Shown piece after piece: positions 41,269 to 44,001 of a stretch of 64,000 nucleotides of DNA (within the stretch, counting starts at the first letter, position 1; every line of letters begins with the position of its first letter). The translations under genes were made by a program, and so were the position numbers. The stretch lies in assembly GCF_009914755.1 (NCBI RefSeq), contig NC_060939.1, one strand, 5' to 3'. The notes under the pieces are model-generated. The model did no database searches and was not told the origin of the DNA. It saw nothing but the letters and a program-made list of their open reading frames with translations. The DNA is from the human T2T-CHM13v2.0 reference genome, Homo sapiens.

Positions 41269-42970
41269 CCATAGGCCTCAAAGTGCTCCAAATATTCACT
41301 TGCAGATTCTACAAAAAGAGTGTTTCAAAACTGCTCAATAAAAAGACAGGTTCAACTCTGTGAGATGAATGCACACATCAAAAAGAAGTTTCCCAGAATA
41401 CTTCTGTCTAGTTTTTATATGAAGGTATTGCCTTTTACACCATAGGCCGCAAATCATGCCAAATATCCACTTGCAGATTCTCCGAAAAGGTGTTTCTTAA
41501 CTACTCAATTAAAACAAAGGTTCAACTTTGTGTGATGGACGCATACATTACAAGGAAGTTTCACAGAATGCTTCTGCCTAGATTTTAGGTGAAGGTATTT
41601 CCTTTTCCACCATAGTCCTCAAAAACCTTCAAATATCCACTTACACATTCTCCAAAAGAGGGTTTCCAAACTGCTCAGTCAAAAGATAGGTTAAACACTG
41701 TGAGATGAATGCACACATCACAAAGGAGTTTCTCAGAATGCTTCTGTCTACTTTTTATGTGAAGATATTTTCTTTTACACCATAGGCTGCAAATCGCTCC
41801 AAATATCCAATAGCAGACTCTAGAAAAGCAGAGTTGCAAACTGCTCAATCAAAAGAAAGTTTCACCTTTATGTGATGAATGCACACATCACAAAGAAGTT
41901 TCTCAGAATGCTTCTGTCTGGTTTTTATGGGAAGATATTGCCTTTTCCACCATAGACCACAAAGCGCTCCAAATATCCTCTTGCAGGTTCTACAAAGAGA
42001 GTGTTTCAAAACTGCTCCATCAAAAGAAATGTACAACTCTGTGAGATGAAGGCACACATCACAAAGAAGCTTCTCAGAATGATCTGTCTAGATTTTATGT
42101 GAAGATATTTCCTTTTCCACCATAGGCCTCAAAGTGCTCCAAATATTCACTTGCAGATTCTACAAAAAGAGTGTTTCAAAACTGCTCAATAAAAAGACAG
42201 GTTCAACTCTGTGAGATGAATGCACACATCAAAAAGAAGTTTCCCAGAATACTTCCGTCTAGTTTTTATATGAATGTATTGCCTTTTACACCATAGGCCG
42301 CAAATCATGCCAAATATCCACTTGCAGATTCTCCAAAAGGGTGTTTCTTAACTGCTCAATTAAAACAAAGGTTCAACTTTGTGTGATGAACGCATACATT
42401 ACAAGGAAGTTTCACAGAATGCTTCTGCCTAGTTTTTAGGTGAAGGTATTTCCTTTTCCACCATAGTCCTCAAAACCCTTCAAATATCCACTTACACATT
42501 CTCCAAAAGAGGGTTTCCAAACTGCTCAATCAAAAGATAGGTTAAACACTGTGAGATGAATGCACACATCACAAAGGAGTTTCTCAGAATGCTTCTGTCT
42601 ACTTTTTATGTGAAGATATTTTCTTTTACACCATAGGCTGCAAATCGCTCCAAATATCCAATAGCAGACTCTAGAAAAGCAGTGTTGCAAACTACTCAAT
42701 CAAAAGAAAGTTTCACCATTATGTGATGAATGCACACATCACAAAGAAGTTTCTCAGAATGCTTCTGTCTGGTTTTTATGGGAAGATATTGCCTTTTCCA
42801 CCGTAGACCACAAAGCGCTCCAAATATCCTCTTTCAGGTTCTACAAAGAGAGTGTTTCAAAACTGCTCCATCAAAAGAAATGTACAACTCTGTGAGATGA
42901 ACGCACACATCACAAAGAAGCTTCTCAGAATGATCTGTCTAGTTTTTATGTGAAGATATTTCCTTTTCCA
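41269..42970. repeat. 851-bp (5-monomer) direct duplication inside the last unit
   Basis: 42120 onward (CCATAGGCCTCAAAGTGCTCCAAATATTCAC) restarts the sequence seen at 41269. The recurring 65-aa ORF expected at 42099 appears at 42950. Confidence 0.93.
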
Positions 42971-43227
42971 GCAAGGGGCTCAAAGCGCTCCAAATATCCA
43001 CTTGCAGATTATACAAAAAGAGTTTTTCAAAAATGTTCAATCAAAAGAAAGGTTCAACTCTGTGTGATGAATGCACCCGTCACAAAGAAGTTTCTCAGAA
43101 TGCTTCTTATTAGTTTTTATGTGAAGATATTTCCTTCTGCTCTATAGGACTCAAAGCGCTCCTAATATCCATTTTCAGATACTACCAAAAGACTGTCTCC
43201 ACACTGCTCAATCAAAAGAATAGTTCA

Positions 43228-43531
43228 GGCCGGGCGCGGTGGCTCACGCCTGTAATCCCAGCGCTTTGGGAGGCCGAGGCGGGCGGATCACGAGGTCAGG
43301 AGATCGAGACCATGCCGGCTAAAACGGTGAAAACCCGTCTCTACTAAAAATACAAAAAATTAGCCGGGCGTAGTGGTGGGCGCCTGTAGTCCCAGCTACT
43401 TGGGAGGCTGAGGCAGGAGAATGGCATGAATCCGGGAGGTGGAGCTTGCAGTGAGCCGAGATCCCGGCCAACTGCACTCCAGCCTGGGCGACAGAGCAAG
43501 ACTCCGTCTCAAAAAAAAAAAAAAAAAAAAA
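43228..43531 (+). mobile_element. AluYa5, diverged terminal copy 11 with perfect 14-bp TSD
   Basis: Same insertion site. TSD AAAAGAATAGTTCA at 43214-43227 and 43532-43545. Shares the private CAGCGCTT and CCCGGCCAACTG changes with copies 1-10 but differs at ~10 other positions. Confidence 0.95.
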
Positions 43532-44001
43532 AAAAGAATAGTTCAACTCTGTCAGTTGAATGCACACATCACAAGGAAATTTCTCAGAATGCTTCTGTCT
43601 AGTTTTTATGTGAAGATATTTCCTTTTCCACCGTAGGCCTCAAAGCCCTCCAAGTATCCACTTGTTAATTCTACAAAAAGAGAGTTTCAATACTTCTCAA
43701 TCAAAAGAAAAGTTCAACTCTGTGGGATGAATGCACACATCAAAAAACAGCTTCTCAGAATGCCTCTGTCTAGTTTTTATATGAAGATATTTCCTGTTCC
43801 ACCATAGGTCACAAAGCACTCCAAATATCCATTTTCAGATTCCACAAAAAGAGTGTTTCAAAACTGCTCAATAAAAAAAAAGTTCAACTCTGTGAGATGA
43901 ACGCACACCTCACAAAGAAGATTCTCAGAATGCTTCTGTGTAGTTTTTATGTGAAGATATTTCGTTTTCCACCATGGGCCCCAAAGGGCTCCAAATATCC
44001 A

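What the first reader, a model, noticed from the sequence alone, without database searches (positions are those of the whole stretch)
42093..44001. Right end is joined out of register (+5 monomers) to a distinctly diverged copy of the unit
Seen: within TTTTATGTGAAGATATTTCCTTTTCCA (42093-42119, equal to 41242-41268) the sequence jumps back 851 bp. From there it differs from the array at about 15 sites in 1.1 kb before the Alu, ~10 in the Alu and ~6 in 0.45 kb after it (counted by eye), while the left end matches the array consensus. Some differences are ancestral in the terminal copy and some in the array. Inference: two long-separated lineages (different haplotype or paralog, or an edge copy excluded from homogenisation) were joined by a shifted crossover. 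About 1.3-1.5% divergence is high for sequence post-dating an AluYa5 insertion, suggesting a deep haplotype or an elevated local mutation rate.
Basis: partly seen in the sequence, partly recalled or inferred. Interest (0 to 1): 0.72.

Follow-up and report, generated by a model that had tools for sequence, protein, structure and literature searches.

The report
Old edge copy of satellite array
The last, partial unit of a small chromosome-15 satellite array is an older copy that escaped the recent copying that made the other units nearly identical, and it is joined to them by one shifted recombination, which is ordinary behaviour for tandem repeats.

Summary
The array has a 3,391-bp unit of 18 alpha-satellite monomers plus one Alu. 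It runs in register from 5816 to 42119. Inside a 27-bp identity block (42093-42119) it switches register. The remaining 1,882 bp (42120-44001) differ from the array consensus at 35 bases and one 5-bp indel (1.9%). The 3.7 kb before the junction differ at 3 bases. So the change is a step, not a gradient.

A 94-95% paralogue on chr20 serves as outgroup. It shows about equal derived changes on both lineages (8 array, 9 terminal; 16 and 19 over all sites). All 11 array copies form a clade, with the terminal copy as their sister. The terminal copy abuts the array's founding right boundary and keeps the intact Alu target-site duplication. No other copy of it, or of the junction, was found in this genome.

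Best reading: it is a relic of the right-hand edge or founder unit, joined by one out-of-register recombination. The shift can be read as +851 bp or as -2,540 bp.

The array, with terminal 14-mer and 9-mer variants, is already published (PMC11050224). The "too high" divergence fits the reported ~10-fold higher mutation rate on acrocentric short arms. This is ordinary satellite dynamics; interest is low.

The parts
5721..5815 (+). Left transition part-monomer (P1-left). It belongs to the original left flank and is a paralogue of unit positions 1253-1347.
   Evidence: 7 differences in 95 bp to the unit, against about 17% divergence further left and 0 fixed differences to the right. The stretch is colinear with the chr20 paralogue straight across this boundary.
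5816..42119 (+). Homogenised array. It holds a partial first unit (5816-7859, unit positions 1348-3391), ten full units starting at 7860, 11252, 14645, 18042, 21432, 24822, 28215, 31609, 35000 and 38393, and a partial eleventh unit (41784-42119, positions 1-336).
   Evidence: The units are 99.5-100% identical. Only 12 SNV columns vary among the ten full units, and the mean pairwise difference is 3.6 SNVs per unit. Each unit holds 18 monomers plus one Alu inside monomer 4.
35593..35900 (+). Alu with poly-A in one array unit, as an example. The same insertion is present in all ten full units and in the terminal copy.
   Evidence: 11 copies were found in the window. The ten in the full units are 99.3-100% identical to the consensus, and the terminal one is 96.5% identical.
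42093..42119 (+). Junction. This 27-bp block is identical between the monomer 2/3 boundary (unit 310-336) and the monomer 15/16 boundary (unit 2850-2876). The register changes inside it.
   Evidence: The block is 27 bp in the array type and 37 bp in the terminal (ancestral) type, because the array lineage changed position 309. There are no extra bases at the join.
42120..44001 (+). Terminal diverged partial unit (unit positions 2877-3391 followed by 1-1372).
   Evidence: 35 substitutions and one 5-bp indel against the array consensus. It is sister to all array copies with 99/96 support. The only 100% match in the genome is the stretch itself.
43228..43538 (+). Alu of the terminal copy, flanked by a perfect 14-bp target-site duplication (43214-43227 and 43532-43545).
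   Evidence: 11 differences to the array Alu. The duplication AAAAGAATAGTTCA is intact here, whereas the array units carry 5 extra bases in the 3' copy.
44002..44084 (+). Right transition part-monomer (P2-right). It belongs to the original right flank and is a paralogue of unit positions 1373-1456.
   Evidence: 10 differences in 83 bp, then about 25% divergence beyond. It mirrors the left transition and places the founding exchange in unit positions 1348-1372.

Best explanation
The stretch 42120-44001 is what remains of the array's right-hand edge unit, most likely the right copy of the founding duplication. It is a paralogue of the other units, not an allele or an import.

The array arose by an unequal exchange between two similar monomers that lay 18 monomers plus one Alu apart (unit positions 1348-1372). 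This happened after the Alu had inserted. The left-copy lineage then gained about 16 substitutions and a 5-bp insertion. Much later it was amplified or homogenised into the present 11 near-identical copies. The right-edge copy gained about 19 substitutions of its own and was never overwritten.

One out-of-register recombination then joined an array-type unit to the old edge unit, inside a 27-bp identity block at the monomer 2/3 and 15/16 boundaries. The mechanism could be unequal exchange, single-strand annealing or template switching. The net effect is either -2,540 bp (13 monomers plus the Alu) or +851 bp. Because that event removed or bypassed the original transition between the two types, the change of type now coincides with the change of register.

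What is shown: the structure, the step in divergence, the polarity of the changes and the tree. What is inferred: the founder status of the edge copy, a single event at the junction, and the dating.
For: - Step change: 3 differences in 3,727 bp before the junction against 35 in 1,882 bp after it, with no gradient inside the terminal copy.
- Outgroup polarity: a chr20 paralogue (94-95% identical) is colinear with window 1267-8361 across the left array boundary. Over 1,017 bp it gives 8 array-derived changes, 9 terminal-derived changes and 42 shared changes. The monomer-consensus method agreed at every site that both methods resolved, 16 of these 17.
- Tree: chr20, then the terminal copy (branch 0.009), then a clade of all 11 array rows (stem 0.0069, support 99/96).
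- Mirror-image boundaries: the two transition part-monomers (5721-5815 and 44002-84) fit a founding exchange at unit positions 1348-1372, with the terminal copy adjoining the original right flank.
- Alu: the terminal copy has the same Alu at the same site, and its target-site duplication is intact. The array copies carry a derived 5-bp insertion there.
- Uniqueness: the 121-base junction stretch and a 161-base terminal-type stretch each have one 100% hit in the genome, which is the stretch itself. The next best hits are 95-97%, and they are the array units. Only 40 of 1,835 and 40 of 4,303 candidates were scored.
- Published precedent: edge repeats being less homogenised is a described pattern (PMC5615363, passage read).
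Against: - The left edge is not old. Its only difference from the array is one polymorphic site, so the edge effect is one-sided.
- The first 136 bp after the junction (42120-42255) carry no difference, so the change of type is placed only to within 42093-42255. The chance of no difference there is 0.125.
- A single genome cannot separate a within-array relic from an exchange with a differently homogenised allele.
- Polarity rests on weaker evidence for some sites. Unit positions 503-1372 have only the monomer consensus as a guide, because chr20 homology stops at position 502. Two Alu sites (661, 790) rest on a sample of Alus biased towards the array type.
- The reads under the junction were not examined.
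Confidence: 0.65

Rival explanations
1. The shifted junction is old and formed within old-type sequence. It then acted as a barrier. In-register exchange and conversion among the regular units overwrote everything up to the point where in-register homology ends (unit position 336), and the shifted distal part was left alone.
For: This also predicts that the change of type coincides with the junction. The array units coalesce very recently compared with the split from the terminal copy (0.1% against 1.9% pairwise), so homogenisation has been active.
Against: The overwritten tract would have to end within the last 27 bp, because position 309 (42092) is of the array type. That needs many events or a conversion tract running exactly to the end of homology. 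The shifted part is still 98% homologous to regular units, so it could have been converted too.
Confidence: 0.15
2. The terminal copy and everything distal to it come from another lineage of the same locus. That would be a divergent allele whose array had been homogenised to a different variant, or a copy on another acrocentric chromosome. An out-of-register crossover brought it in.
For: Heterologous and ectopic exchange on acrocentric short arms is documented (PMC10172130, abstract in the search listing; PMC12724521, abstract). With a ~10-fold higher mutation rate, alleles could differ by about 1-2%. The near-equal counts (16 and 19) fit two independently evolving arrays as well as they fit two paralogous units.
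Against: No other locus in this genome holds the unit above 93% identity. The best hit outside the array is the Alu-less chr20 paralogue. The terminal copy shares the Alu, its insertion site and 42 chr15-specific changes with the array. It ends exactly at the array's founding boundary. An allelic source cannot be tested here.
Confidence: 0.12
3. The junction is an assembly artefact, either a false join or a collapse.
For: The 38-kb array is about 99.9% identical between units, so its copy number is hard to assemble.
Against: CHM13 is effectively haploid, so no haplotype switch is possible (established knowledge). The junction lies under 2 kb from a well-differentiated flank and next to 35 private variants, so a single long read should anchor it (inference). 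An independent published decomposition of the same assembly also gives two variant copies at this end, but that is the same assembly and therefore not independent evidence for the reads.
Confidence: 0.03

Closest known systems
'Willard-type 18mer HOR array (hor1)' of T2T-CHM13 chromosome 15, 14,699,937-14,737,927 (Gluncic et al. 2024, PMC11050224; passages and a supplement text search read)
   Same: It is this array (window about 5,937-43,927). The paper reports 12 copies: 10 canonical 18-mers plus a 14-mer and a 9-mer variant. With units phased from monomer 7, my structure gives the same result: 10 x 18, then 14 (monomers 7-18, 1-2), then 9 (monomers 16-18, 1-6), which makes 203 monomers. This mapping is my inference, because their Figure S1 is an image I could not read.
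   Different: The main text never mentions the Alu (0 occurrences). I found no statement on the divergence of the last copy ('divergence' occurs 0 times in the supplement text). The paper uses no outgroup, assigns no polarity and gives no origin model.
Weaker homogenisation at the ends of tandem arrays (McAllister and Werren 1999, as cited in the review PMC5615363; passage read)
   Same: A terminal repeat next to the flank is much more diverged than the interior repeats and keeps ancestral states.
   Different: Only the right end shows it here. The boundary is a sharp step at a register shift and not a gradient over several units.
Layered-expansion model of centromeric alpha-satellite arrays (Altemose et al., bioRxiv 10.1101/2021.07.12.452052; passages read)
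   Same: A recently expanded, very homogeneous block lies next to an older, more diverged remnant of the same repeat.
   Different: This is a 38-kb array on 15p, far from the chromosome 15 20-mer and 15-mer HOR arrays listed in PMC11050224. It has one old layer on one side only, with no mirror symmetry. [quoted passage not shown]
5SRNA_Comp composite array (Hoyt et al., bioRxiv 10.1101/2021.07.12.451456; passages read)
   Same: An AluY-type insertion into one copy came before the tandem amplification, so every unit carries it. Alu-less relatives lie elsewhere as segmental duplications, as the chr20 paralogue does here.
   Different: The unit content differs (alpha-satellite monomers here), and this array has only 12 copies.

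Membership tests
[quoted passage not shown] | Units built of about 171-bp alpha monomers, repeated head to tail | tested here: met
   TRF reports a 171-bp period over 4166-43227. A profile search resolves 18 monomers per unit.
[quoted passage not shown] | Units nearly identical to each other while monomers within a unit are much more diverged | tested here: met
   Units are 99.5-100% identical. Monomers within a unit are 74-89% identical (mean about 82%), with no sub-period.
[quoted passage not shown] | Unit made of alpha monomers only (classical definition) | tested here: not met
   Every unit holds a ~310-bp Alu inside monomer 4. It is therefore an HOR-like composite unit.
Alu SINE insertion | ~280-bp body matching dispersed genomic copies, a 3' poly-A and a flanking target-site duplication | tested here: met
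   Among the 40 scored hits to the 283-base body, 29 lie outside the array and are 93-98% identical. The poly-A is 23-28 A long. A perfect 14-bp duplication flanks the terminal copy.
AluYa5 subfamily | The five subfamily-diagnostic bases relative to AluY | not testable with these tools
   No Alu subfamily reference is available in the tools. From my recollection of the diagnostic positions, the element appears to carry all five. This is recalled, not tested.
Edge repeat that escaped homogenisation | Lies at the end of the array, directly against the original flank | tested here: met
   It ends at 44001, where similarity to the unit drops to 88% and then to about 75%.
Edge repeat that escaped homogenisation | Falls outside the clade of interior units and keeps ancestral states | tested here: met
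   The tree gives 99/96 support. At 8 sites it shares the chr20 state where the array is derived, and these sites are interleaved with 42 chr15-specific sites.
Edge repeat that escaped homogenisation | The effect is seen at both ends of the array | tested here: not met
   The left partial unit has no fixed difference from the array.
Out-of-register homologous (unequal) recombination junction | Breakpoint inside a tract of identity shared by two paralogous repeats, with no added or lost bases | tested here: met
   The 27-bp block is shared by unit positions 310-336 and 2850-2876. The flanking monomers are about 87% identical.
Out-of-register homologous (unequal) recombination junction | Existence of the reciprocal product, or direct observation of the event | not testable with these tools
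   This needs population or pedigree assemblies.

The most novel reading that the evidence does not exclude
The terminal copy is the surviving right-hand founder copy of an HOR-like array born on the human lineage after an AluYa5 insertion. If so, the locus carries its own rooted clock. Both lineages gained about 0.9% substitutions (16 and 19) since the founding duplication. The ten full units differ by only about 0.1%. If the Alu is human-specific, this needs a substitution rate several-fold to ~10-fold above the genome average, sustained over roughly 1-2 million years. That would be a long-term confirmation of the pedigree-based rate for acrocentric short arms. It would also date the amplification burst to roughly 0.1 million years ago.
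Probability: 0.35. Interest if true: 0.45.

Novelty: new member of a known kind. Interest (0 to 1): 0.22.

Why it matters
The locus is a clean, small example of how a tandem array is born, homogenised and left with an old copy at one end. It has an outgroup (chr20) and a dated marker (the Alu), which together give polarity and relative timing.

Its practical value is modest:
- It offers a compact place to test long-term substitution rates and spectra on an acrocentric short arm against the pedigree estimates.
- It gives private k-mers (the junction and the terminal copy) that could genotype this array in pangenomes.

It does not reveal a new mechanism. The array and its terminal variants are already described in print.

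Tried and rejected
1. An older 5-monomer periodicity as the reason for the '+5' shift. Rejected: mean monomer identity is flat at 82-83% for all cyclic lags 1-9. Monomers 2/15 and 3/16 are merely among the more similar pairs at 87%.

2. A donor for the terminal copy elsewhere in the genome. None was found. The best hit outside the array is chr20 at 93%, covering only the part before the Alu. The junction stretch and a terminal-type stretch are unique at 100% among the scored candidates. The tool scores only the best candidates, so this is not exhaustive.

3. Gene conversion from chr20 as the source of the chr20-like states. Rejected: the 8 such sites are interleaved with 42 sites where the terminal copy shares the chr15 state.

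4. A mosaic of tracts within the terminal copy. In the 17 polarised sites I counted 7 runs against about 9.5 expected (hand calculation, z about -1.2). That is no evidence for a mosaic.

5. A divergence gradient. Rejected.

6. A chr20 outgroup for unit positions 503-1372. Not available: chr20 homology breaks at position 502 and resumes only at window 46331. The stretch in between matches only at the generic 81% level.

7. Method note. Default BLAST filtering hid the terminal copy, because hits extended into generic alpha satellite and fell below my identity cut-off. Stricter scoring and a global alignment resolved this.

8. A printed age for AluYa5. Three look-ups gave none in the passages I read, so the statement that Ya5 is mostly human-lineage is recalled. 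Only the Alu clock rates (0.15% per My non-CpG, 0.9% per My CpG) come from a paper (PMC554112).

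Full report
**What the window holds.** The window is alpha satellite from 1 to about 48.4 kb. It is followed by a LINE-1 on the minus strand, more alpha satellite (54.4-56.8 kb) and HSat3-type (CCATT)n from 57,059. Within the alpha satellite lies a tandem array with a period of 3,391-3,393 bp. Ten full units start at 7860, 11252, 14645, 18042, 21432, 24822, 28215, 31609, 35000 and 38393. 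They are 99.5-100% identical to one another. Each unit holds 18 monomers that are only 74-89% identical to each other, plus one Alu with a poly-A tail inserted in monomer 4. Among the ten full units only 12 columns carry single-base variants. The units also differ in poly-A length, by one 8-bp insertion and by one 1-bp insertion. The mean pairwise difference is 3.6 SNVs per unit, about 0.1%.

**The observation.** The 27-mer at 42093-42119 equals 41242-41268. It occurs at unit positions 310, 975, 1316, 2171 and 2850. Up to 42119 the sequence follows the array in register, with lag-3391 identity of 1.00. From 42100 on it follows the array at lag 851 with 0.96-1.00 identity, while in-register identity falls away. 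Base 42092 fits only the in-register path and 42120 only the shifted path, so the switch lies inside the 27-mer, with no added bases. Because the array is periodic, 'back 851 bp (+5 monomers)' and 'forward 2,540 bp (loss of 13 monomers and the Alu)' describe the same junction.

**The divergence.** I aligned 42093 onwards to the rotated consensus of the ten full units. The counts are:
- 18 substitutions in 42120-43227
- 11 substitutions in the Alu (43228-43538)
- 6 substitutions and one 5-bp indel in 43539-44001

That is 35 substitutions in 1,882 bp (1.86%; 1.5% outside the Alu, 3.5% inside it). Two of the 35 sites (unit positions 609 and 3092) are still polymorphic among the array units, and some units share the terminal copy's state there. 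The 3,727 bp before the junction differ from the consensus at 3 bases (Fisher p = 5e-14). Within the terminal copy the density does not rise towards the edge: 1.9%, 1.4% and 1.3%. The change is therefore a step. The first difference after the junction is at 42256. A difference-free stretch of 136 bp has probability 0.125 at this density, so the change of type is located only to 42093-42255.

**The ends of the array.**
- On the left, similarity to the unit is about 83% up to 5720. Then there are 7 differences in 5721-5815. After that, from 5816 to 7859, the only difference is the polymorphic site 3092.
- On the right, the terminal copy ends at 44001. Then there are 10 differences in 44002-44084, and about 25% divergence beyond.
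- These two transition pieces are adjacent parts of one monomer type (unit positions 1253-1347 and 1373-1456).

This is the pattern expected if the first duplication arose by an exchange within unit positions 1348-1372 between two similar monomers lying one unit length apart. The left flank keeps the left half of the first monomer, and the right flank keeps the right half of the second. The terminal copy therefore sits where the right-hand founder copy should sit (inference). Counting monomers gives 12 + 180 + 2 + 9 = 203.

**Outgroup and polarity.** The window's genome is held and searchable. Outside the array, the best match to the terminal copy is chr20:30,892,005-30,893,113 at 93%, and it covers only the part before the Alu. 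I fetched 20 kb there. The region is 94-95% identical and colinear with window 1267-8361, straight across the left boundary of the array, apart from a one-monomer indel. It is also colinear with 46331-50237. Homology stops at unit position 502, and the stretch in between matches only at the generic 81% level.

- Over the 1,017 bp where all three sequences align, 8 differences are derived in the array, 9 are derived in the terminal copy, and 42 are shared against chr20.
- The 8 sites are interleaved with the shared ones, so they are retained ancestral states and not a conversion tract from chr20.
- An independent polarisation used the majority state of about 94 other monomers in the window. It gave the same call at each of the 16 sites (of these 17) that it could place. 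It adds 4 array-derived and 2 terminal-derived changes for unit positions 503-1372. A third terminal-derived change there (position 1335) could not be placed by the script, and I called it by eye from its context.
- For the Alu I tallied the states of 20 other genomic copies. Seven changes are derived in the terminal copy, four of them CpG transitions. Two are clearly derived in the array. Two more (661, 790) are probably derived in the array, but that sample was picked by similarity to the array type and splits 10:10 and 12:8.
- Both copies share about three further changes against the other Alus.

The totals are 16 for the array and 19 for the terminal copy (binomial p = 0.74). The terminal copy also has a perfect 14-bp target-site duplication, whereas the array units carry 5 extra bases in the 3' copy, which is an array-derived change. 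A maximum-likelihood tree of the 1,017-bp region places the terminal copy (branch 0.009) as sister to a clade of all 11 array rows (stem 0.0069, support 99/96), with chr20 outside.

**Uniqueness.** A 121-base stretch across the junction and a 161-base stretch of the terminal type each have exactly one 100% hit in the genome, which is the stretch itself. The next hits are the array units at 95-97%, followed by chr20 at 94%. The tool scored 40 of 1,835 and 40 of 4,303 candidates, so these are the best candidates and not an exhaustive list.

**Mechanism.** The '+5' has no deeper meaning. There is no 5-monomer sub-period in the unit: mean identity is 82-83% at every lag. The two monomer boundaries simply share a long identity block. 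It is 27 bp now and was 37 bp in the ancestral type, before the array lineage changed position 309. The junction carries the array-type base at position 309 on its left. So, in the simplest reading, the event came after that change and joined an array-type unit to the old edge unit.

Seen as a 2,540-bp loss, the lost segment runs from monomer 3 of the last array-type unit to monomer 15 of the old unit. It would have contained the original transition between the two types. That explains why the change of type and the change of register coincide. A single out-of-register recombination is thus sufficient. Whether it was unequal exchange, single-strand annealing or template switching cannot be told from the sequence.

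The rivals are:
- an old junction that later acted as a barrier to homogenisation
- an exchange with a differently homogenised allele or another acrocentric chromosome
- an assembly error

The first two cannot be excluded from one genome. The third is unlikely, because CHM13 is effectively haploid (established knowledge) and the junction lies within 2 kb of a well-differentiated flank. The reads were not checked.

**Is the divergence too high?**
- At the autosomal pedigree rate quoted in PMC12724521 (1.37e-8 per bp per generation), about 0.8-0.9% per lineage would take 14-20 My.
- That is far older than I recall for AluYa5, which is mostly specific to the human lineage. Both the subfamily call and this age are recalled, not tested.
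- The same preprint reports 1.33e-7 for acrocentric short arms, about 10-fold higher, with fewer C>T changes (abstract and passages read).
- At that rate the split is about 1.4-2.1 My old, and the ten units coalesce at about 0.1 My. These are rough figures.
- PMC11062924 reports 1.1- to 4.1-fold higher rates in pericentromeric flanks (passages read).

The 35 polarised changes comprise 20 transitions and 15 transversions. That ratio is lower than usual but not significantly so (p = 0.2).

**What is in print.** Gluncic et al. 2024 (PMC11050224) list this array as a 'Willard-type 18mer HOR (hor1)' at 14,699,937-14,737,927, with 12 copies: 10 canonical plus a 14-mer and a 9-mer. With units phased from monomer 7, my structure gives exactly 10 x 18 + 14 + 9, so the register shift is implicit in their scheme. 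This mapping is my inference, because their Figure S1 is an image. The paper does not mention the Alu (0 occurrences in the main text). I found no statement on the divergence of the last copy in the passages read or in the supplement text. Weaker homogenisation at array ends, layered expansion, and amplification after a TE insertion are all described phenomena.

**Verdict.** This is an instance of known satellite dynamics in a published array. The new elements are the rooted polarity, the founder-boundary anatomy and the link to the short-arm mutation rate. Interest is low to modest.

Noticed in passing
window 1267-8361 and 46331-50237; L011+L012 (chr20:30,882,001-30,902,000, minus strand): A segmental duplication of mostly monomeric alpha satellite is shared between 15p and the chr20 pericentromere at 94-95% identity. 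It lacks the Alu and the array. Homology breaks at unit position 502 and resumes at window 46331. There is a one-monomer (171-bp) indel near window 6412-6559.
   Followed up: partly
unit positions 609 and 3092 in the units between 7860 and 41783: Two derived array variants are still polymorphic. Position 609 reads T in unit 1, C in units 2-6 and T in units 7-10. Position 3092 reads A in the partial first unit and in units 1, 3, 4 and 5, and G in units 2 and 6-10. All four combinations occur, which points to exchange or conversion between units, or to recurrent mutation.
   Followed up: partly
unit 14645-18041, after unit position 939; poly-A tails of all units: Unit 3 carries a private 8-bp insertion. 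The Alu poly-A tail varies from 23 to 28 A among the units and is 25 A in the terminal copy.
   Followed up: no
43377, 43426, 43440, 43498 (terminal Alu); unit 8 at unit position 806: All four CpG transitions in the Alu fall on the terminal-copy lineage and none on the array lineage. Unit 8 carries the same C-to-T change at position 806, apparently independently. The numbers are small (one-sided chance about 0.06, by hand).
   Followed up: no
42120-44001, all 35 polarised changes: The spectrum is 20 transitions to 15 transversions, with 7 C>A and 5 T>A changes. That is more transversions than usual but not significant (p = 0.2). The direction agrees with the altered spectrum reported for acrocentric short arms (PMC12724521).
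   Followed up: partly
about 48400-54300, minus strand: A LINE-1 remnant lies here. ORFs at 50727-51986 and 50151-50726 match the endonuclease and reverse-transcriptase domains, so ORF2 is broken into pieces.
   Followed up: partly
57059-64000 and 57555-57886: A (CCATT)n HSat3-type satellite starts at 57,059. Within it, a 137-bp unit containing a short Alu-like fragment is repeated 2.4 times at 95% identity.
   Followed up: no
L003 (chr3:90,377,785-90,382,676), locus positions 2574-2880: Another young Alu sits inside alpha satellite on chr3 and is 97.7% identical to the array's Alu. This produced a spurious full-length 81% match to the terminal copy.
   Followed up: no
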